Origin: a bacterium
Lineage (GTDB): Bacteria > Bacillota_I > Bacilli_A > RF39 > UBA660
Assembly (NCBI GenBank): GCA_029012525.1
Contig: JAQXMG010000046.1
Coordinates: 1-7,703 of the forward strand
DNA length: 7,703 bases
Reading direction: 5' to 3'
Positions 334-7,232 of the stretch are shown here, piece by piece. Each line of letters opens with the position of its first letter. Within the stretch, counting starts at the first letter, position 1. Made by a program: the position numbers and the translations under genes. Below the pieces are notes generated by a model, which saw only the letters and a program-made list of their open reading frames with translations, searched no databases and had not been told where the DNA came from.

Positions 334-875
334 ATGAATAAAAATACCTTAGTATTAGAGGTGGAATATGACTTGGCTAATGGTGTATTTTCTGAAATTT
401 ACAAAGTTTATAATATTGATTATGCTCCATATATATTAAAAAGTTTTTATATAGAAAATGATGTAAATGATATATCTTTTAGAACAAATCTTTCAGAATG
501 GTTTAAAGGAAGAAGTATTCCAAGATAAATATAACTGCTCCAAGCGAATTATTAGATAAAGCAAATGCTTTATCACTTTCAGACCAATATTGGATAAAAC
601 CATATAATCTAGATGTAAAATATGATGATATTAACTTTTTTGATGACGATTTTGAGTATAGTGAATTTTTAGAGGCATCATTATCTAAAAATAGTAAAGT
701 TATAACGAATGAAAAATCATTAAAAAAAACTTCAAATAATACAACTGATGGTATGTTAAAGAAAGCATGGATTATTGAAAATGGAACAAGATATCTTCTT
801 AAAGGAGGATATAAAAATGAATTATTACAACCATTTAATGAAGTTTTAGCAAGTGAAATATGTCGTCGTTTATGA
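334..875 (+). pseudogene. HipA-like Ser/Thr kinase toxin gene, degraded: frameshift near 523-530, and the kinase core is missing after 875
   Basis: The frame-1 ORF 334-528 ends ...LSEWFKGRSIPR*. The reading continues in frame 3 from ~528 as NITAPSELLDKANALSLSDQYWIKPYNLDVKYDDINFFDD...TTDGMLKKAWIIENGTRYLLKGGYKNELLQPFNEVLASEICRRL* (TGA at 873-875). The blocks W..GRSIP, LSLxDQYWIK, TxDGxLxKxWxxxxGxxYLxKG and NExxAS match my memory of Firmicute HipA-like N-terminal and central regions. The catalytic C-terminal half is absent. Frame-1 residues 876-~1030 might be a remnant C-terminal tail. Confidence 0.55.
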
Positions 876-1030
876 TTTAAAAAGAATTGATATTAATAAG
901 TTAGATGGAATTGTAGAATGGTTTGATGAATTACTTCATAAATATCAACATTTAACTAAATTTTCTGATACGAGAATTAATAAATTATGTATTCTATTAA
1001 ATAGGCAAATAAACAAATTAAAAAAATTAA

Positions 1031-1059
1031 TTGTATTTTTTTATAAAATTTTATATAAT
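1031..1059 (+). promoter_or_regulatory. Candidate sigma-70-type promoter of the DGR target gene
   Basis: TTGTAT (1031-1036), a 17-nt spacer, then a perfect TATAAT (1054-1059), about 34 nt upstream of the ATG at 1093. Such matches arise by chance in AT-rich DNA. Confidence 0.35.
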
Positions 1060-1092
1060 TTATTTATAATAAAGAGAGGAGTTAAAGAAAAA

Positions 1093-2955
1093 ATGAAAAA
1101 TTTAAAAGATAATATAAGAAATAAATATATAGTAGCATCACTATTTGTAATAGGACTTATATTAATGGTAATTGGAGTATCATATGCCATGTATACATTT
1201 ACAGGTACAGGTACAACAGAAAACGTAATAACAACAGGACAAATAACCGTAGCATTTGCAGAACAAAATAATATCTTAATACAAAATAGATATCCAGAAA
1301 CAGATGCAGTAGGACTAGCAAGTACAGATCCTAATAGTCAAATGACATTTACAGTATCAAGTAATATTTCAGGAGATGCAACAGTAAATTATGCAATAGG
1401 TTTAACTGATATAGTTGAAGGAGCAACATTAAAACAAGACCATATAAAAATTTACTTAACAAAAAATGGAAGTGTTGCAAATGACTTTACAGAAAATAAA
1501 GGAAAGACAATTAAAAGTATATCAAGATATAGTATAACAAACTATCTAGATAGCCATGTAATAGCACAAGGGTCTGTAACTGGTACTCAAACTGATACAT
1601 ATACATTAAAAGCATGGATAGATGAAAACTATGATTTACCAACAACAGATACATCAAGTGGTAACGTACATAGTAATACAACAACAACTGAAACATTTAG
1701 TTTTAAATTAAAAGCAATAGGTTCAGATGATGTATTAGTATTTGTAAAACCAGAAGTATTAGTATGTGATGAAATGCCAGAAGAAACAACAAGTGCAAAT
1801 GTACCAAGTTTAGCAAAAAATATGATACCAGTATGCTATAATAGTACAAAAAATGTATGGTTAAAAGCAGATAGTACAAATACAGATTCAGATTATAGAT
1901 GGTATTCATATAGTGGAAAGTCTTGGGCTAATGCAGTAACAGTAAGTGAAACAAATAGAGAAACATATTTAGATGCAGAGGTTGGAACAGTAATTCCAAT
2001 GGAAGTAATAAACACAATGTTAGTATGGATACCAAGATTTAGTGCAACAGGTGATACAGCAAATTATAATGGAGGAACAATAGATAGTCCTGGAGCATTT
2101 AATATAACATTTGTAAATAAAGATACAGCGGCACATGATGCTTTTGCATTTGGAACAGATTCATTATCAGGATTTTGGATAGGAAAATTTGAAAATTCAA
2201 GTAATGTATCATGTGAACCAGCAAGTAGTTCTGACGTAGGAGCAGGATGCAATCTAACATCAATAAGACCAAAAGTATTACCAAATGCAACAATTTGGAG
2301 AGGAGCAAATGTATCAACATTCTTTGGTGATATTCAAAAAATGGCTGATAGTGGAAACCAATATGGATTTGATAAAACAATTGATACAACCCTAGATACC
2401 CATATGTTAAAAAATAATGAATGGGGTGCAGTAGCATACCTAACACAAAGTATCTATGGTAGATGTAGTTCATTAACAAGTTGCAGTGAAGTAGGAATAA
2501 ATAATAATTCAAGTTATATAACAGGATATGGAGCACCTGCTGGAAGTGCATCTACTGTAACAAATGGAGCATATAATACAGACTTAGGAAAAGATGCATC
2601 GACAACAGGAAATATTTATGGTGTATATGATATGAGTGGTGGAGCATATGAATACGTAATGGGTAATTACAATAATACAGCAGATGGTTCTCAATTTACA
2701 ACATTACCAAATACAAAATATTATAATGTATATACAACAGAAAGTGCATATACAACAGCAGGATTACAACATGCGTTAACGGAGACGAAAAAATGGTATG
2801 GCGATTCCGCGTACTTCGTTAATTCTAACCGTCCGTGGGTCCTTCGTGGAGGCAACGATAGTAATCCTGGCCTTGCAGGTGTTTTCTACTTCCACGCCTC
2901 CGGTGGCCGCAGCGATCCGTATTGTGGTTCTCGTCTTTCAGTCACAATTAACTAA
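1093..2955 (+). CDS. DGR target (variable) protein: N-terminal signal-anchor, beta-rich middle region, C-terminal FGE-sulfatase/C-type-lectin-like domain ending in the VR
   Basis: AGAGGAG (1075-1081) lies 11 nt before the ATG at 1093. The N-terminus MKNLKDNIRNKYIVASLFVIGLILMVIGVSYAMYTF has a basic stretch followed by a hydrophobic helix. The C-terminal half carries FGE/CLec-type blocks GFWIGKFE, NEWGAVAYL, GVYDMSGGAYEYVMGNY and WVLRGG...GSRLSV. The ORF-track start at 853 is only a stop-free read-through of the upstream remnant. Confidence 0.85.
   Translation: MKNLKDNIRNKYIVASLFVIGLILMVIGVSYAMYTFTGTGTTENVITTGQITVAFAEQNNILIQNRYPETDAVGLASTDPNSQMTFTVSSNISGDATVNYAIGLTDIVEGATLKQDHIKIYLTKNGSVANDFTENKGKTIKSISRYSITNYLDSHVIAQGSVTGTQTDTYTLKAWIDENYDLPTTDTSSGNVHSNTTTTETFSFKLKAIGSDDVLVFVKPEVLVCDEMPEETTSANVPSLAKNMIPVCYNSTKNVWLKADSTNTDSDYRWYSYSGKSWANAVTVSETNRETYLDAEVGTVIPMEVINTMLVWIPRFSATGDTANYNGGTIDSPGAFNITFVNKDTAAHDAFAFGTDSLSGFWIGKFENSSNVSCEPASSSDVGAGCNLTSIRPKVLPNATIWRGANVSTFFGDIQKMADSGNQYGFDKTIDTTLDTHMLKNNEWGAVAYLTQSIYGRCSSLTSCSEVGINNNSSYITGYGAPAGSASTVTNGAYNTDLGKDASTTGNIYGVYDMSGGAYEYVMGNYNNTADGSQFTTLPNTKYYNVYTTESAYTTAGLQHALTETKKWYGDSAYFVNSNRPWVLRGGNDSNPGLAGVFYFHASGGRSDPYCGSRLSVTIN
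2800..2944 (+). repeat. DGR variable region (VR), the last ~48 codons of the target gene
   Basis: It aligns without gaps to 3777-3921 (offset +977). Across 2801-2944 there are 25 mismatches, 22 of them where the TR base is A (9 A>C, 7 A>G, 6 A>T). By hand count the VR is 54% GC, against ~41% for the TR and roughly 25% for the window. An invariant 20-bp 3' block (2925-2944) could serve as an IMH-like element. Confidence 0.9.
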
Positions 2956-2983
2956 TTGTTAAATTTATTTAACAATTAGTTAA
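2948..2983. promoter_or_regulatory. Perfect inverted repeat (hairpin/cruciform) 3 nt downstream of the VR; candidate DGR target-recognition element
   Basis: TTAACTAATTGTTAAAT (2948-2964) is the exact reverse complement of ATTTAACAATTAGTTAA (2967-2983), with a 2-nt centre. It overlaps the TAA stop (2953-2955). No equivalent repeat follows the TR. Confidence 0.7.
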
Positions 2984-3094: not shown

Positions 3095-3129
3095 AGAAGA
3101 TTAAAGAAAAAATAAAAGAGGTAGGTAGT

Positions 3130-3171
3130 CCCAGCAAAATTAAACTGATTTTAATTTTGCTGGGGTTTTTT
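3130..3171 (+). terminator. Rho-independent terminator of the target gene
   Basis: The stem is CCCAGCAAAATTAAA (3130-3144) paired with TTTAATTTTGCTGGG (3150-3164), with the loop CTGAT. It is followed by G and TTTTTT (3166-3171). Confidence 0.8.
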
Positions 3172-3264
3172 GTATATTTGTAAAATATAAAGTCATAAAT
3201 ATTTTAAAGTCAAAAAGTCATATTTATTATGCAATTTTTGTTATTAAATTTTTAGTTAAACTCG

Positions 3265-3301
3265 TTGACGTGTGTGTGTGTGTGTGTATGTGTATTATAC
3301 T
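3265..3301 (+). promoter_or_regulatory. Candidate promoter for the MutS-I-like/TR/avd/RT transcription unit; its spacer is the (GT)9 tract
   Basis: The -35-like TTGACG is at 3265-3270. The -10-like hexamers are TATTAT (3293-3298, spacer 22 nt) and TATACT (3296-3301, spacer 25 nt). The site lies between the terminator (3171) and the RBS/ATG at 3310/3326. Confidence 0.35.
3270..3287. repeat. (GT)9 dinucleotide microsatellite, followed by the degenerate ATGTGT
   Basis: GTGTGTGTGTGTGTGTGT can be read directly at 3270-3287. It is compositionally anomalous in this AT-rich window. Confidence 0.95.
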
Positions 3302-3325: not shown

Positions 3326-3739
3326 ATGATAAAGTTAAGTGATTATGTTAAAGAAGTAATTGATAAAAATATTGATAAAGTCGTAATGGTAAAGTATGGT
3401 AATTTTTATAGATGCTCTTATAATGATGCATTAATTATGTCATATTTATTTAATTATAAAATTACAAATAGAAATACTGTTGGTTTTCCAATTAATACAC
3501 TAAATAATGTTTTAGATAAATTAAAAGATAATAAGATAAGCTGTGTAGTAGTATATGAAATAAATAATGTAATAAGTTATGTTATTATAGATAATAAATA
3601 TATGGAAGTATTAGATAAAGCAATAAAATATGATAATGTGAAAGAGGCAGTAAAAGTAATTAGTGAATTATCTTATGAAATATTAAATAGAGATATTAGA
3701 AAATTACATAAAATAATGTTATTTTTAAGAAATTTATAA
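3326..3739 (+). CDS. Small DGR accessory protein resembling MutS N-terminal mismatch-binding domain I (MutS-like, 137 aa)
   Basis: The RBS AGGAAGTGA (3310-3318) lies before the ATG at 3326. KVVMVKYGNFYRCSYNDALIMSYLFNYKITNRNTVGFPINTLNNVLDKLKDNKISCVVV parallels E. coli MutS [33 protein letters not shown]...[25 protein letters not shown]. Conserved blocks are G-F-Y, Y-DA, (L/I)T-R, G(I/F)P and the hydrophobic strand. The comparison was made from memory. Confidence 0.6.
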   Translation: MIKLSDYVKEVIDKNIDKVVMVKYGNFYRCSYNDALIMSYLFNYKITNRNTVGFPINTLNNVLDKLKDNKISCVVVYEINNVISYVIIDNKYMEVLDKAIKYDNVKEAVKVISELSYEILNRDIRKLHKIMLFLRNL

Positions 3740-3776
3740 TGGTATCAACTTTAGTTGGTATAGGGATAAAGCTACA

Positions 3777-3921
3777 AGTGATAACGCGAACTTCGTTAAT
3801 TCTAACAATCCGTGGTTCCTTCGTGGAGGCAACTATAGTAATACTGGCAATGCAGGTGTTTTCAACTTCAACAACAACAATGGCAACAGCAATACGAATT
3901 ATGGTTCTCGTCTTTCAGTCA
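3777..3921 (+). ncRNA. DGR template repeat (TR), the non-coding RNA template for mutagenic cDNA
   Basis: It is homologous to VR 2800-2944. Read in the VR-equivalent frame (pos mod 3 = 0) it gives DNANFVNSNNPWFLRGGNYSNTGNAGVFNFNNNNGNSNTNYGSRLSVST* with 16 AAY (Asn) codons. It contains 43 adenines, of which 22 differ in the VR. Confidence 0.9.
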
Positions 3922-4097
3922 GTACTTAGTAAAATTGTTATACAAGACTGATGTAAATAGTTTAAGGACTATTAAAGGTTATTATAAGTACAAGTTTTAT
4001 TCCTTATCTTACAAAGATAAAATAAATTACTATGATAGTTTTAGGTGAGTAATGTTTTTTATGAAAATTCTAAAACTATTAAGAAGGAGAATTAATT

Positions 4098-4439
4098 ATG
4101 TTAAATAATTTAATAATATATAAGGTACATCTTGATTTAATGGAATATGCATATAAATTACTTGTTAAGTATCCAAAATATGAAAAAAACGGAATAGTAA
4201 GTGAAATAAAAGAAAATCTATATGATATATTAAAAAATATTATTTATTATAATAATAAAAAGAATAAAATTTCATTAAATAATATATTAATTGATTTAAA
4301 TATGCTTTTAGTATTAATTAGAATATCATATAAAATGAAATATATAACTAATAAAAACTATATGGCATTTGCAAGAAAAATAAATAACATAAGTAAACTA
4401 TGTCATGGATTAATAAATAGTGTTAACAATCAAAAATAG
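4098..4439 (+). CDS. avd: Avd (accessory variability determinant), four-helix-bundle protein
   Basis: The RBS AAGGAG (4084-4089) lies before the ATG at 4098. The protein is 113 aa and basic. The pattern ...YKLLVKYPKYEKNGIVSEIKENLYDIL...IDLNMLLVLIRISYKMKYITNKNYMAFARKINNISKLCHGLI matches the Avd / 23S-rRNA-IVS four-helix-bundle family. It sits immediately upstream of the RT and overlaps it. Confidence 0.8.
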   Translation: MLNNLIIYKVHLDLMEYAYKLLVKYPKYEKNGIVSEIKENLYDILKNIIYYNNKKNKISLNNILIDLNMLLVLIRISYKMKYITNKNYMAFARKINNISKLCHGLINSVNNQK

Positions 4440-5442
4440 TTTTTATAGTAATATTACATTTGATAAGTTTTTAAAAGCATATTATAAATCAATTAAGGGT
4501 AAAGGTTTAAAATGTGAAATACTTGAATTTTATTATAATTTAGAAAATAATTTAATTACATTAGTGGATGAAATAAGTTCTTTTAAATATAAAAGTAGTC
4601 CATATAGAGAATTTATTATATATGAACCAAAGATGCGAATTATAAGAAGTTTACCATTTAGAGATAGAGTAGTAGAAACATGGTATGTAGAAAATATAAT
4701 AAAACCATATTTTGTACCAAGATTTATTTATGATAATTATGCATGTTTAGAAAATAAAGGGACACATAAAGCAGTAAAAAGACTTCAACATTTTATGAGA
4801 AGTATGAGGGAGAAATATGGAAAATATTATGTTGTTAAGTTTGATATAAGACATTTTTTTGATAGTATAGATAAAGATATATTATTTAGTATATTAAAAA
4901 GATATATAACTGATAAATATGTATTATTATTTACATATAATATAATTTATAGTAATAATAAATGCGGGTTACCTATTGGAAATTACTCAAGTCAGTACTT
5001 CGCAAATATTTATATGAATGAATTAGATCATTATATAAAGGATGTTCTTCATAAAGCGTGCTACGCACGTTTTATGGATGATTTTGTCGTTTTGGTTGAA
5101 AATAAAGTAGAAGCGAGAGAATTTTTTGATTTAGTAGAAATATTTGTAAATAATAAACTTAATTTAGGACTTAATAAAAAGAGTTGTTATTATCCAAGTA
5201 GGTTAGGAATTGACTTTTGTGGATATATTATTCATGAAGATTATATACTTGTTAGAAAAAGATGTATTAAAAAGATAAAAGGAAAAATAAAAGTATGGAA
5301 TAAATTATATGATAAAGGTGTTCTTGATAATAAAAAGTTTATTTTATCTTTTAATTCATTTTTAGGACATATAAGTCATGCGAATACTTATAATTTAAAA
5401 TGTAAAGTTATTAGTGAAATTGATTATTTAAATATAAAATAA
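4420..5442 (+). CDS. DGR-type reverse transcriptase
   Basis: The GTG at 4420 is the first possible start after the in-frame TAA at 4414-4416, and it overlaps avd by 20 nt. RT motifs are present: IIYEPKMRIIRSLPFRDRVV (motifs 1-2), VKFDIRHFFDSI (motif 3), LPIGNYSSQYFANIYMNELDH (the DGR-diagnostic IGxxxSQ motif 4) and ARFMDDFVVL (the YxDD catalytic box). The 340-aa length is typical of a DGR RT. No intron maturase or endonuclease domains are present. Confidence 0.93.
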   Translation: MLTIKNSFYSNITFDKFLKAYYKSIKGKGLKCEILEFYYNLENNLITLVDEISSFKYKSSPYREFIIYEPKMRIIRSLPFRDRVVETWYVENIIKPYFVPRFIYDNYACLENKGTHKAVKRLQHFMRSMREKYGKYYVVKFDIRHFFDSIDKDILFSILKRYITDKYVLLFTYNIIYSNNKCGLPIGNYSSQYFANIYMNELDHYIKDVLHKACYARFMDDFVVLVENKVEAREFFDLVEIFVNNKLNLGLNKKSCYYPSRLGIDFCGYIIHEDYILVRKRCIKKIKGKIKVWNKLYDKGVLDNKKFILSFNSFLGHISHANTYNLKCKVISEIDYLNIK

Positions 5443-5520: not shown

Positions 5521-5563
5521 TTTTTTTCGAAAAAATTTCGATTTTTTTTCGATTTTTTTTCGA
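5521..5563. repeat. Four TCGA cores spaced exactly 11 bp apart and separated by T/A tracts; the first lies in the palindrome TTTTTTCGAAAAAA
   Basis: TCGA occurs at 5527-5530, 5538-5541, 5549-5552 and 5560-5563. The intervening runs are mostly T7-8. Confidence 0.7.
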
Positions 5564-5567
5564 CTTG

Positions 5568-5677
5568 CAATTTGCTTTGTCAAGTGTTATATTTGGTATA
5601 GTAGTGCTAATTATTGTAAAATGGCAATATTGTTATAGTATACTTAAGAAATTTGGTGATTTTTGCTAAATTTTTTT
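5568..5677 (+). repeat. Direct repeat copy A (~110 bp), upstream of the Fic gene; contains two TGnTATAGT extended -10-like motifs and a hairpin followed by a T-run
   Basis: It aligns to 6601-6709 with about 8 differences in ~110 positions. TGGTATAGT is at 5594-5602 and TGTTATAGT at 5631-5639. The stem is AAATTTGG (5649-5656) paired with CTAAATTT (5666-5673), followed by a T-run to 5679. Confidence 0.8.
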
Positions 5678-5747
5678 TTGGTAAAATTAAACAATATAAG
5701 ATGTTTTATGATATAATTCATATATATAAAGTTTAGGAGGTATCAAT

Positions 5748-6560
5748 ATGGATGATATTACTTATGATAAAGTTGTTGATGAAAAAAATTCTAAAATAAA
5801 ACAGTTATATTGGAATATAGCATTTGGATTACAAGAAGTTGATGGTTTAAAACCTTCAAAATATATGGTGCAGTTATCAAAAGAACATATTGAAGGTAAA
5901 AAAACATATAAACAAGTACAAGATGAAATTACATCATATTATGTCAAAAATTCAAATAATTATGATGATGACGAAGAAGAAGCAGATGAAGTATCAACTG
6001 CTATTTATGAAATATTAAGTGATGGTGCATTTCGTTTTGATTATTTAACTTATAAAAATTATCATAAAAGATTATTTAAATATTTAAGCAATGAAAAGTA
6101 TGATGCTGGAAATTTTAGGACTTACAATTTTACTAAAGATGAACCAGTATTAAATGGGGATAGTGTAGATTATCAATCTTATGATTTAATTGAAGAAACT
6201 TTAAAGTATGATTTTTCTGAAGAAAAAGAAGTTGATTATATTAATATGAATAAAGAGCAAATAGTTGATCGAATATCAGAATTTACATCAAGGATTTGGC
6301 AAATTCATCCATTTAGGGAAGGAAATACTAGAACAACTGCAGTATTTATTCAAAAATATTTGTTAAGTATGGGATTTAAAGTTAATAATGATTTATTTAA
6401 AGATAATTCACTATATTTTAGAAATGCTTTAGTTAGAGCAAATTATACAAATTATGTTATAGGTGTAAGGGCTGACAAAATTTATTTAAATAAGTTTTTT
6501 GAAAATTTGTTATTAAATAAAAAGAATAAATTGGATAATGATGATTTAAGGATTAATTAA
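5748..6560 (+). CDS. Fic-family protein with a VbhA-like N-terminal domain and a non-canonical active-site motif
   Basis: The RBS AGGAGG (5735-5740) lies before the ATG at 5748. The Fic core is IHPFREGNTRTTAVF, against the consensus HxFx(D/E)GNGRxxR. The N-terminal NIAFGLQEVDGLKPSKYMVQLSKEHIEGKKTYKQVQDEI parallels VbhA NALASQRLEGLEPDPQVVAQMERVVVGELETSDVIKDL. The C-terminal block is YFRNALVRANY. Confidence 0.8.
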   Translation: MDDITYDKVVDEKNSKIKQLYWNIAFGLQEVDGLKPSKYMVQLSKEHIEGKKTYKQVQDEITSYYVKNSNNYDDDEEEADEVSTAIYEILSDGAFRFDYLTYKNYHKRLFKYLSNEKYDAGNFRTYNFTKDEPVLNGDSVDYQSYDLIEETLKYDFSEEKEVDYINMNKEQIVDRISEFTSRIWQIHPFREGNTRTTAVFIQKYLLSMGFKVNNDLFKDNSLYFRNALVRANYTNYVIGVRADKIYLNKFFENLLLNKKNKLDNDDLRIN

Positions 6561-6600
6561 TATAATAAATTTATTATTTTTTTCCTATTTTTTCACCTTT

Positions 6601-6709
6601 CAATTTGTTTTGTCAAGTGTTATATTTGGCATAGTAGTGCTAATTATTGTAAAACGCTAATATTGTTATAGTATATTTAAGAAATTTGGTATTTTTGCCA
6701 AATTTTTTT
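6601..6709 (+). repeat. Direct repeat copy B, downstream of the Fic gene; followed by an RBS and only a 4-codon ORF
   Basis: It is ~93% identical to 5568-5677. The hairpin is AAATTTGG (6682-6689) paired with CCAAATTT (6698-6705), followed by a T-run to 6709. AGGAGG (6730-6735) then precedes ATG TAT AAG ATA TAA (6743-6757). Confidence 0.8.
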
Positions 6710-6802
6710 GTTTGTTTAAAATAAAGGTTAGGAGGTTAAAAAATGTATAAGATATAAAATTATTGTTTTTGGCAGCATTTTTGTAATACAATTATCTATT
6801 TT

Positions 6803-7058: not shown

Positions 7059-7232
7059 ATGAATAAAGAAGATTTAGTATTTTATCAAGTTAGAATTAAT
7101 AAAAAATTATTAAAAATTTTTAAAGAAATAATTAAAAAAACTAAAATGTCACAACAAGATTTTTTTGATAGTGCTATAAAAGAATTTATTGTTAAAAATA
7201 TTGATGTTGTTGCAAAAATTGAAGATAAATAA
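7059..7232 (+). CDS. Small ribbon-helix-helix (CopG/Arc-like) DNA-binding protein, 57 aa; not in the supplied ORF track
   Basis: The RBS AGGAAAGGAG (7042-7051) lies 7 nt before the ATG at 7059, and the stop is TAA at 7230-7232. The translation is MNKEDLVFYQVRINKKLLKIFKEIIKKTKMSQQDFFDSAIKEFIVKNIDVVAKIEDK. It fits the RHH pattern of an N-terminal beta-strand (VFYQVRI), helix A, then helix B (SQQDFFDSAIKEFI). Confidence 0.6.
   Translation: MNKEDLVFYQVRINKKLLKIFKEIIKKTKMSQQDFFDSAIKEFIVKNIDVVAKIEDK

What the first reader, a model, noticed from the sequence alone, without database searches (positions are those of the whole stretch)
3326..3739. Stand-alone MutS domain-I-like protein encoded inside the DGR, between the target gene and the TR
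The 137-aa ORF aligns by eye to the mismatch-recognition domain (domain I) of MutS. GNFYRCSYNDA corresponds to [16 protein letters not shown] to SLTKR, VGFP to AGIP, and a terminal hydrophobic strand to ESVAI. It lacks every other MutS domain (connector, clamp, ATPase).

The mismatch-stacking Phe of the MutS F-x-E motif is retained (F in GNFY), but the Glu is replaced by Arg. I recall that large DGR surveys list a MutS-like (MSL) accessory ORF class with unknown function, and this appears to be one.

Adenine-mutagenised cDNA integrating at the VR must create multi-mismatch heteroduplexes. A mismatch-binding module in the cassette could shield them from host mismatch repair, or bias resolution toward the cDNA strand. 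That mechanistic link has not been tested.
Basis: partly seen in the sequence, partly recalled or inferred. Interest (0 to 1): 0.78.

Follow-up and report, generated by a model that had tools for sequence, protein, structure and literature searches.

The report
MutS-like accessory gene of a DGR
The 137-residue ORF really is a stand-alone copy of the mismatch-recognition domain of the DNA repair protein MutS, sitting inside a diversity-generating retroelement; this "MSL" accessory gene class was described in 2017, so this is a new member of a known class whose function is still untested.

Summary
ORF 3326-3739 (+) matches Pfam MutS_I above the curated cut-off (E 3.9e-7). A very confident AlphaFold model (pLDDT 97.8) finds only MutS/MSH6/MSH3 domain I among its top 50 hits in the PDB.

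The ORF lies between the VR (2801-2944) and the TR (3778-3921) of a genuine DGR. Of 25 TR/VR mismatches, 22 fall at TR adenines. bAvd and an RT with the IGxxxSQ motif follow on the same strand.

The family has about 657 representatives at 50% identity, almost all 110-150 aa. The MutS wedge Phe is invariant (133/133). The MutS Glu position is variable, with Glu in 8/133 and Arg here. A C-terminal helical hairpin is added to the domain.

All 13 intact relatives with enough flanking DNA sit within about 1.1 kb of a DGR RT. A few are fused to the RT C-terminus.

This is the MSL class of Wu et al. 2017 (PMC5758913), also noted in Bacteroides DGRs. I found no functional test of it. My favoured mechanism is inferred: a mismatch or kink binder that cannot license repair and protects cDNA-derived mismatches from host mismatch repair.

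A side finding is a conserved, length-polymorphic TTGACR-(TG)~10 promoter-like tract upstream of MSL.

The parts
853..2955 (+). DGR target (variable protein) gene, 700 aa. It has an N-terminal membrane anchor and a C-terminal C-type-lectin/FGE-sulfatase-like region that carries the VR.
   Evidence: ORF. Weak FGE-sulfatase match at residues 582-639. The VR is at its 3' end.
2801..2944 (+). Variable region (VR)
   Evidence: 144-nt repeat of the TR with 25 mismatches, 22 at TR adenines.
2948..2983 (+). Perfect 16-bp hairpin with a 4-nt loop, starting 4 nt after the end of VR/TR homology. It is placed like the hairpin/cruciform target-site element that, from my own knowledge, the Bordetella phage DGR carries just downstream of its VR.
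   Evidence: DNA fold -12.6 kcal/mol, z = -6.6, 0 of 200 shuffles as good. Identical in L014.
3127..3176 (+). Intrinsic terminator-like hairpin plus T-run. It separates the target gene from the MSL-TR-avd-RT unit.
   Evidence: 18-pair stem followed by a T-run; 2 such sites found against 0.2 expected.
3265..3301 (+). Promoter-like element: TTGACG, then a (GT)9-AT-(GT)2 tract, then TATTAT/TATACT, upstream of the MSL ribosome-binding site.
   Evidence: Sequence. The same TTGACR-(TG)~10-TATAAT-like layout precedes distant MSL genes in L003, L013/14, L015-17, L019 and L026. L028 and L029 have a TG tract before a -10-like box, but the excerpt read did not reach a TTGACR. The tract is the only difference among three otherwise identical 320-nt stretches. 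It differs by 2 nt between the window and L014.
3326..3739 (+). MSL (MutS-like) accessory gene, 137 aa. Residues 1-91 form the MutS domain I fold with invariant F27. Residues 92-136 form a helical hairpin.
   Evidence: dN/dS 0.45 against the L014 allele.
3778..3921 (+). Template region (TR), 43 adenines in 144 nt, with AAC-rich codons when read in the target frame.
4098..4439 (+). bAvd accessory variability determinant, 113 aa.
   Evidence: Pfam bAvd PF22296, E 3e-15. NCBIfam DivGenRetAVD, E 4e-15, which is below that model's curated cut-off.
4420..5442 (+). DGR reverse transcriptase, 340 aa, overlapping the end of avd. It carries the IGNYSSQ motif; IGxxxSQ is, from my own knowledge, a signature of DGR RTs.
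   Evidence: RVT_1, E 3e-19. Sequence.

Best explanation
Identity (confidence about 0.95): the ORF encodes an MSL (MutS-like) accessory protein of a diversity-generating retroelement. It appears to be expressed as the first gene of an MSL-TR-avd-RT unit.

Mechanism (inferred; the confidence figure below refers to this part): MSL keeps the DNA-kinking, base-stacking Phe wedge of MutS domain I. It has lost everything that turns mismatch recognition into repair: the Glu of the F-x-E motif, and the connector, lever, clamp and ATPase domains. From established knowledge, the connector and ATPase domains are where MutL docks and where the sliding clamp forms.

I propose that MSL travels with the Avd-RT-cDNA particle, held there by its extra C-terminal helical hairpin. 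It would bind the mismatch-dense heteroduplex that forms when adenine-mutagenised cDNA pairs with the VR. Because it cannot license repair, it would act as a non-productive cap. It would compete with host MutS (mismatch repair and heteroduplex rejection), so that the cDNA-borne changes survive until replication fixes them.

Shown here: the fold, the residue pattern, the domain loss, the operon linkage and the RT fusions. Inferred: DNA or mismatch binding, the substrate, and antagonism of MutS.
For: Fold and motif.

Residue conservation: F27 is invariant in 133/133 family members. G25, Y28, D34, Y44, F54 and P55 are conserved at 91% or more. The MutS Glu38 position is variable (R33, N22, H17, K13, E only 8). 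The best PDB sequence and fold matches are the mismatch-contacting subunits MutS, MSH6 and MSH3; MSH2 is not among those listed.

Charge: pI is 9.1 and the family median is 8.4.

Linkage: 13 of 13 distinct intact homologues with enough flank lie within about 1.1 kb of an RT on the same strand. Eleven of these RTs matched my IGxxxSQ...YxDD pattern. The window RT and its 98%-identical L013/L014 copy carry IGNYSSQ but FMDD, so that pattern missed them. Gene order is MSL-(TR)-avd-RT, often with overlapping stop and start codons, avd-RT-MSL in L020, or MSL directly after the RT in L004 and L006/7.

Fusions: MSL is fused to the RT C-terminus in P0065, P0140 and P0143.

Selection: dN/dS is 0.45, so the gene is under purifying selection.

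Literature: deleting host mutS raises retrohoming 5-10-fold in the Msl-less B. ovatus DGR, with all-or-nothing reversal (bioRxiv 10.1101/2024.11.15.621889). Suppressing MMR was built into an E. coli DGR system (10.64898/2026.07.21.739853). MSL and HRDC accessory genes do not co-occur (PMC5758913).
Against: No binding or genetic data exist for any MSL.

From general knowledge, the clamp domains of the MutS dimer contribute much of its grip on DNA. A lone domain I may therefore bind weakly unless Avd, the RT or oligomerisation helps.

In RT fusions the stoichiometry is one MSL per RT. That cannot cap the 20 or more mismatches of one cDNA, and it fits a role at the polymerase better.

The three Msl-bearing Bacteroides DGRs were the low-activity ones, although that study attributed this to low transcription.

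Whether the host of this contig has mutS/mutL is unknown. Related reduced-genome lineages differ: RF39 keeps mutSL, RFN20 often lacks it, and Mycoplasmatales lack it.
Confidence: 0.4

Rival explanations
1. MSL is a cofactor of the reverse transcriptase itself. It would sit next to the thumb and contact the nascent TR-RNA:cDNA hybrid from the minor groove. It would stabilise the A:N mispairs just made, so that the RT extends instead of stalling or dissociating. That would raise cDNA yield, cDNA length or adenine-mutagenesis efficiency.
For: Natural RT-MSL fusions place MSL directly after the RT C-terminus (P0065 residues 355-483, P0140 residues 380-497). Wu et al. also saw MutS_I-like C-terminal RT extensions. 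MSL, avd and RT are tightly packed and often overlap, which suggests stoichiometric co-expression. The Phe wedge is invariant.
Against: Most DGRs lack MSL (16 of 372 carry it in PMC5758913). From my own knowledge of published biochemistry, the Bordetella phage RT-Avd pair performs adenine-specific mutagenic cDNA synthesis without any MSL. MutS domain I is known to read DNA:DNA duplexes; recognition of an A-form RNA:DNA hybrid is unproven.
Confidence: 0.25
2. MSL recognises a DNA structure rather than mismatches. Candidates are the hairpin/cruciform next to the VR, a branched or D-loop integration intermediate, or slipped (TG)n DNA in its own promoter. Its role would then be target-site selection, cDNA integration or autoregulation.
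For: A perfect 16-bp hairpin lies 4 nt after the VR. From general knowledge, MutS-family proteins bind kinked and branched DNA. The loss of the discriminating Glu and its replacement by basic or polar residues argues for less mismatch-specific binding. MSL is mutually exclusive with HRDC, another nucleic-acid-binding accessory domain. A conserved (TG)~10 tract sits just upstream of MSL in many loci.
Against: Nothing links MSL to these structures beyond proximity. MSL-bearing DGRs with other gene orders (L020, L022, L024) show no (TG)n tract. Hairpins after the VR are, from my own knowledge, also reported for DGRs without MSL.
Confidence: 0.15
3. MSL is a decaying or selfish passenger: a MutS fragment captured by a DGR lineage, with no role in retrohoming.
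For: Truncated copies occur next to orphan target genes. There is a 53-aa stub in L005, L009 and L011, and altered C-termini in L001 and L002. The MSL segment is a recombination patch in an otherwise near-identical element.
Against: The family has about 657 representatives with strongly conserved core residues. dN/dS is 0.45. The AF2 model is very confident. Adjacency to RT and avd persists across 30-45% sequence identity and across phyla, Bacilli and Bacteroidota. Independent fusions to the RT exist. The truncated copies are found only where TR, avd and RT are also gone, as expected if MSL is kept only while the DGR works.
Confidence: 0.05

Closest known systems
MSL / Msl (MutS-like) accessory proteins of DGRs (Wu et al. 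2017, NAR, PMC5758913, 'Architecture D'; Msl of the Bacteroides Bfr, Bth and Bun DGRs, bioRxiv 10.1101/2024.11.15.621889)
   Same: It is a small stand-alone protein with MutS_I similarity, encoded inside the DGR cassette. It co-occurs with avd and has no HRDC partner. Its size of 137 aa lies within the published 112-283 aa range. Relatives occur in Bacteroidota as well (L004, Muribaculaceae).
   Different: Nothing essential differs. This copy comes from a very AT-rich (22-25% GC) uncultured gut bacterium or element. It is more basic (pI 9.1) than the published average (7.2 +/- 1.7). I could not align it directly with the 16 published MSL sequences.
Domain I (mismatch-recognition domain, Pfam PF01624) of MutS, MSH6 and MSH3
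   Same: It has the same fold. It shares the G-x-F-Y motif with the stacking Phe, the D-A motif and the G-[FI]-P motif. A conserved basic residue lies four positions before the Phe (K23, aligned with MutS R32).
   Different: The Glu of F-x-E is not conserved (Arg here). The roughly 9-residue MutS loop (RGASAGEPI) is missing. There are no connector, lever, clamp or ATPase domains. An extra 45-residue helical hairpin is present. It cannot dimerise through ATPase domains or recruit MutL in the way MutS does.
HRDC accessory proteins of DGRs
   Same: Both are small nucleic-acid-binding domains borrowed from DNA repair or recombination enzymes and placed in a DGR cassette. HRDC is mutually exclusive with MSL, which suggests an analogous step.
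   Different: The fold is unrelated. About half of HRDC-bearing DGRs lack avd, whereas MSL always comes with avd.
Stand-alone 'MutS domain I' proteins in phage metagenomes (BFVD A0A8S5PL02, 74 aa; A0A8S5PPT8, 153 aa; A0A8S5L9N2, 84 aa)
   Same: They are small proteins with the same fold (Foldseek E 5e-6 to 2e-4).
   Different: Their genomic context was not examined here, so they may or may not be DGR-linked. The MSL query itself matched no PHROG family.

Membership tests
MutS domain I superfamily (Pfam PF01624) | Profile HMM score above the curated gathering threshold | tested here: met
   30.7 bits against a cut-off of 20.6, E 3.9e-7. 112 of 123 family members also match.
MutS domain I superfamily (Pfam PF01624) | Three-dimensional fold of MutS domain I | tested here: met
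   AF2 pLDDT 97.8. The Foldseek top 50 PDB hits are all domain I of MutS, MSH6 or MSH3, best E 8e-6.
MutS domain I superfamily (Pfam PF01624) | Mismatch-stacking Phe of the F-x-E motif | tested here: met
   F27 aligns with E. coli MutS F36. It is invariant in 133/133 relatives.
MutS domain I superfamily (Pfam PF01624) | Glu of the F-x-E motif (mismatch discrimination and authorisation of repair) | tested here: not met
   R29 aligns with E38. Only 8 of 133 relatives have Glu at this position.
Canonical MutS/MSH mismatch-repair protein | Connector, lever, clamp and ABC ATPase domains (MutS_II to MutS_V) | tested here: not met
   The protein is 137 aa. The only other Pfam hit is a sub-threshold Bacillus_HBL match. 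Residues 92-136 are a two-helix hairpin.
DGR MSL accessory class (Wu et al. 2017) | Small protein (112-283 aa) with MutS similarity | tested here: met
   137 aa with a MutS_I match. The criteria come from PMC5758913.
DGR MSL accessory class (Wu et al. 2017) | Encoded within a DGR cassette, together with avd and without HRDC | tested here: met
   The ORF lies between VR and TR, with bAvd and RT immediately downstream. No HRDC domain was found in the eight window ORFs scanned.
DGR MSL accessory class (Wu et al. 2017) | Direct sequence homology to the 16 published MSL proteins (e.g. the Legionella DGR MSL) | not tested
There is indirect support only: both sets hit MutS_I, and the family includes a Bacteroidota member (L004).
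Diversity-generating retroelement | TR/VR pair differing almost only at TR adenines | tested here: met
   144 nt, 25 mismatches, 22 at TR A; the other three are at TR T.
Diversity-generating retroelement | RT of DGR type ([LIV]GxxxSQ motif) plus Avd | tested here: met
   IGNYSSQ in the 340-aa RT. RVT_1 E 3e-19 and bAvd E 3e-15.

The most novel reading that the evidence does not exclude
MSL is a natural, element-encoded antagonist of host mismatch repair: a 'decoy' MutS head that caps cDNA-derived mismatches. In this lineage the whole MSL-TR-avd-RT unit would also be switched or tuned by a hypermutable (TG)~10 tract in the promoter spacer. Hypermutation of the target gene would then itself be under phase-variable or supercoiling-sensitive control.
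Probability: 0.25. Interest if true: 0.7.

Novelty: new member of a known kind. Interest (0 to 1): 0.4.

Why it matters
How mutagenised cDNA replaces the VR, and how dozens of clustered mismatches escape the host's repair system, are open questions for DGRs. Recent work shows that host MutS cuts retrohoming 5-10-fold in a DGR that lacks Msl.

A DGR-encoded MutS head that keeps the wedge residue but has lost every repair-signalling part is the obvious candidate for a built-in countermeasure. It could also be a useful part for DGR-based directed-evolution tools, which at present rely on mutS deletion or on dominant-negative MutL.

This window adds no new class. The family-wide picture gives concrete mutants and controls for such a test: the invariant Phe, the lost Glu, the added helical hairpin, the strict linkage to RT and avd, and the RT fusions.

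Tried and rejected
- Single-sequence phmmer of the ORF against PDB sequences found nothing relevant. Only the family profile reached MSH6 and MutS.
- PHROGs and NCBIfam have no model for this protein. This explains its 'hypothetical protein' label in NCBI.
- Rfam found no known RNA family anywhere in the window at E <= 1.
- The search for related loci with the broad alignment A3 failed because no stretch was conserved enough. With the narrower A4 it returned only a few loci per collection, so the context survey rests on about 14 distinct loci rather than hundreds.
- I considered that MSL might travel with the target gene rather than with the RT, because L001, L002, L005, L009 and L011 have target plus MSL but no RT. 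I rejected this. In all of those loci MSL is truncated or altered and the promoter tract has decayed, so they are DGR remnants.
- I considered that the 76% identity of MSL between otherwise 98-100% identical elements meant rapid adaptive evolution. I rejected this too. Synonymous divergence is equally raised (dS 0.31-0.37 against 0.02 in the RT) and dN/dS is 0.45, so it is an imported recombination patch.
- The sigma-70 scanner does not call the TTGACG...TATTAT element, because the spacer (20-23 nt) exceeds its 16-18 nt rule.
- A viral-collection scan for the TTGACR(TG)n motif returned only the two contigs already in hand.
- I could not determine the host taxon or its mutS/mutL status.

Full report
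**What is in the window.** All relevant genes are on the + strand.
- A 700-aa target gene (853-2955) ends in a 144-nt VR (2801-2944).
- The VR is repeated as a TR at 3778-3921. The two copies differ at 25 positions, 22 of them TR adenines (A to C 9, A to G 7, A to T 6). In the target frame the TR is rich in AAC codons.
- Downstream lie a bAvd gene (4098-4439, PF22296, E 3e-15) and an overlapping RT (4420-5442, RVT_1, E 3e-19). The RT carries IGNYSSQ, which from my own knowledge is the [LIV]GxxxSQ signature of DGR RTs.
- A perfect 16-bp hairpin starts 4 nt after the VR (2948-2983, z = -6.6).
- A strong terminator-like hairpin follows at 3127-3176.

This is a complete, probably active or recently active DGR. 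The ORF in question (3326-3739, 137 aa) sits between the VR and the TR.

**Checking the observation.** The ORF matches Pfam MutS_I above the curated threshold (30.7 bits against 20.6, E 3.9e-7).

A profile of 123 family members searched against PDB sequences returns MSH6 and then MutS. That alignment puts G25-N26-F27-Y28-R29 on E. coli MutS G34-D35-F36-Y37-E38, KITN on SLTK, GFP on GIP and ISCVVV on ESVAIC.

An AlphaFold2 model built with that alignment is very confident (pLDDT 97.8, pTM 0.87). In Foldseek against the PDB, the top 50 hits are all domain I of MutS, MSH6 or MSH3 (best E 8e-6).

**Anatomy of the family.** An exhaustive HMM search of 1.84 billion cluster representatives found 657 relatives at E <= 1e-3. 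Almost all of the best 150 are stand-alone proteins of 110-150 aa that match over their whole length.

Across 133 aligned relatives:
- F27 is invariant.
- G25, Y28, D34, Y44, F54, P55 and Y92 are conserved at 91% or more.
- The position of the MutS Glu is free: R 33, N 22, H 17, K 13, and E only 8.

The roughly 9-residue MutS loop after SLTK is absent. Residues 92-136 form a two-helix hairpin that is conserved across the family and has no counterpart in the matched part of MutS.

The protein is basic, with pI 9.1. It has no connector, lever, clamp or ATPase domain. It is therefore a member of the MutS domain I superfamily but not a MutS protein.

**Genomic linkage.** I examined every intact homologue for which enough flanking DNA could be fetched. 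These were the window, L003, L004, L006/7, L013/14, L015/16, L020, L022, L024, L026, L027, L028 and L029.

In 13 of 13 distinct loci an RT lies within about 1.1 kb on the same strand. Eleven of those RTs matched my IGxxxSQ...YxDD pattern. The window RT and its 98%-identical copy in L013/14 have IGNYSSQ but FMDD, so the pattern missed them. The order is usually MSL-(TR)-avd-RT with overlapping stop and start codons. In L020 it is avd-RT-MSL, and in L004 and L006/7 MSL directly follows the RT. L019 has bAvd adjacent, but its contig ends before an RT could be confirmed.

Three representatives (P0065, P0140, P0143) are RT-MSL fusions, with MSL after the RT C-terminus.

Six loci carry a target-gene homologue plus a damaged MSL and, where flank exists, no RT. 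The damage is a 53-aa stub in L005, L008, L009 and L011, and altered C-termini in L001 and L002. L008's contig ends about 150 nt after the stub. In the other five no RT was found in the flanking DNA available: 6-8 kb on both sides in L005 and L011, and downstream only in L001, L002 and L009. I read these as decayed DGRs.

The neighbouring genes are ordinary chromosomal genes of low-GC gut Bacilli and Tenericutes-like bacteria, and in one case a Muribaculaceae bacterium.

**Is the gene under selection?** Two IMG/VR contigs (L013, L014) carry the same element at 98-100% identity, except for patches in the target gene and a sharp patch covering MSL codons 26-137 (81-84% nucleotide identity).

Synonymous divergence in that patch is 0.37, against 0.02 in the RT, and dN/dS is 0.45. 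The patch is therefore an imported allele (recombination), and the gene evolves under purifying selection.

**Comparison with the literature.** The class is already known. Wu et al. 2017 (PMC5758913) defined MSL (MutS-like) accessory genes in 16 of 372 DGRs. They are 112-283 aa, always occur with avd and never with HRDC, and one is in the Legionella DGR. That paper also noted MutS_I-like C-terminal extensions on three RTs.

A guilt-by-association survey found PF01624 linked to DGRs (PMC10053308). [quoted passage not shown] It also shows that deleting host mutS raises retrohoming 5-10-fold in the Msl-less Bov DGR, with an all-or-nothing pattern. Msl itself was not tested, and the Msl-bearing elements were transcriptionally quiet.

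Engineering papers remove or poison MMR to boost DGR output. I found no functional test of MSL.

**Most likely mechanism.**
- Shown: a MutS head with an invariant wedge Phe and no repair-signalling parts, an added helical hairpin, obligate linkage to avd and RT, and occasional fusion to the RT.
- Established knowledge, from my own reading rather than checked here: the Phe is needed for mismatch binding, and the Glu serves discrimination and authorisation of repair. The E38A, E38Q and E38T mutant-DNA crystal structures appear among my Foldseek hits (1wbb, 1wbd, 1wb9). MutL recruitment needs the connector and ATPase domains.
- Inference: MSL binds kinked or mismatched duplex made by the DGR but cannot start repair. 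It would then protect cDNA-derived mismatches from MutS-dependent reversal or heteroduplex rejection. I put this at about 0.4.

The main rival (about 0.25) is a role at the polymerase on the RNA:cDNA hybrid. The RT fusions and their 1:1 stoichiometry favour it. A structure-recognition or regulatory role gets about 0.15, and a functionless passenger about 0.05. The remainder is something not yet imagined.

**Side finding.** Directly upstream of MSL lies TTGACG-(GT)9AT(GT)2-TATTATACT (3265-3301).
- The same layout, TTGACR then about ten TG repeats then a TATAAT-like box, precedes MSL genes that are only 30-45% identical in L003, L015-17, L019 and L026, and also in L013/14. L028 and L029 show a TG tract before a -10-like box, but the excerpts read did not reach a -35 box.
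- The -35 to -10 distance is 20-23 nt, which is too long for a standard sigma-70 promoter. The tract does always supply a TGn extended -10.
- Three contigs encoding the identical MSL protein are 100% identical over 320 nt except inside this tract.
- The window and L014 differ there by one 2-nt unit.
- The remnant loci have shortened or degraded tracts.

This looks like a hypermutable, possibly phase-variable or supercoiling-sensitive, control point for the DGR operon. Assembly error at dinucleotide repeats cannot be excluded without the raw reads.

**Verdict.** Its function remains open. The interest is moderate.

Noticed in passing
window 3265-3301; also L003 7948-7985, L013 1511-1545, L015 1265-1300, L016 167-200, L017 1013-1050, L019 5953-5990, L026 about 3340-3380: A conserved TTGACR-(TG)~10-TATAAT-like promoter-like element lies just upstream of MSL in DGRs whose MSL proteins are only 30-45% identical. 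L028 and L029 have a TG tract before a -10-like box, but no -35 box was seen in the excerpt read. The -35/-10 spacing is 20-23 nt. The TG tract is the only variable site among otherwise identical contigs and differs in 2-nt steps. It may be a phase-variable or Z-DNA/supercoil-sensitive switch for the DGR operon.
   Followed up: partly
window 2948-2983: A perfect 16-bp hairpin with a 4-nt loop starts 4 nt after the VR and includes the target gene's stop codon (z = -6.6). It is placed like the hairpin/cruciform target-site element that, from my own knowledge, has been described for the Bordetella phage DGR.
   Followed up: partly
window 3400-3735 versus L014 4070-4405: The MSL coding region is a sharply bounded divergent patch (81-84% identity, dS 0.37) in an element that is otherwise 98-100% identical (avd 100%, RT 98%, Fic 100% at protein level). 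This points to allele exchange by recombination. Similar patches occur in the target gene at 1901-2300 and 2601-2800.
   Followed up: yes
L005 7977-8138, L009 1421-1579, L011 6001-6162, L008 6001-6159; L001 913-1284; L002 1369-1650: These are DGR remnants. Homologues of the target gene are followed by a truncated MSL (a 53-aa stub ending at the GF of the GFP motif, or an altered C-terminus). Unrelated genes follow, with no TR, avd or RT in the flanking DNA available. L008's contig ends just after the stub, and L001, L002 and L009 have little or no upstream sequence. Homology to the window stops at about 3704-3720.
   Followed up: partly
P0065 (489 aa), P0140 (507 aa), P0143 (266-aa fragment): These are natural fusions of a DGR-type RT (IGNMTSQ or IGNLSSQ, YMDD) with a full MSL domain, including the helical hairpin, at the RT C-terminus.
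   Followed up: partly
window 5560-5680 and 6595-6715: A roughly 120-nt direct repeat (82-88% identical) follows the RT gene and also follows the Fic gene. It contains a TTGCAA-17 nt-TATATT promoter-like element with a TGn extension and conserved leader sequence. It looks like a duplicated promoter/leader placed before Fic (5748-6560) and before the next small ORF.
   Followed up: partly
window 5748-6560 and 7059-7232: A Fic/DOC-family gene (Pfam E 6e-11; phrog_12747 E 4e-38) and a small ribbon-helix-helix-like ORF lie downstream of the RT. Near-identical copies of the whole region are filed as viral contigs in IMG/VR (L013, L014), so the DGR may ride on a mobile element or prophage.
   Followed up: no
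window 2802/3779, 2839/3816, 2857/3834: Three of the 25 VR/TR differences are at TR thymines (T to C once, T to G twice) rather than adenines. They may be ordinary drift in the TR or the VR since the last homing event.
   Followed up: no
window 3739-3951: The 70-aa ORF that starts on the MSL stop codon is just the TR read in another frame. It mirrors the 54-aa ORF over the VR at 2798-2962 and is very probably not a gene.
   Followed up: no
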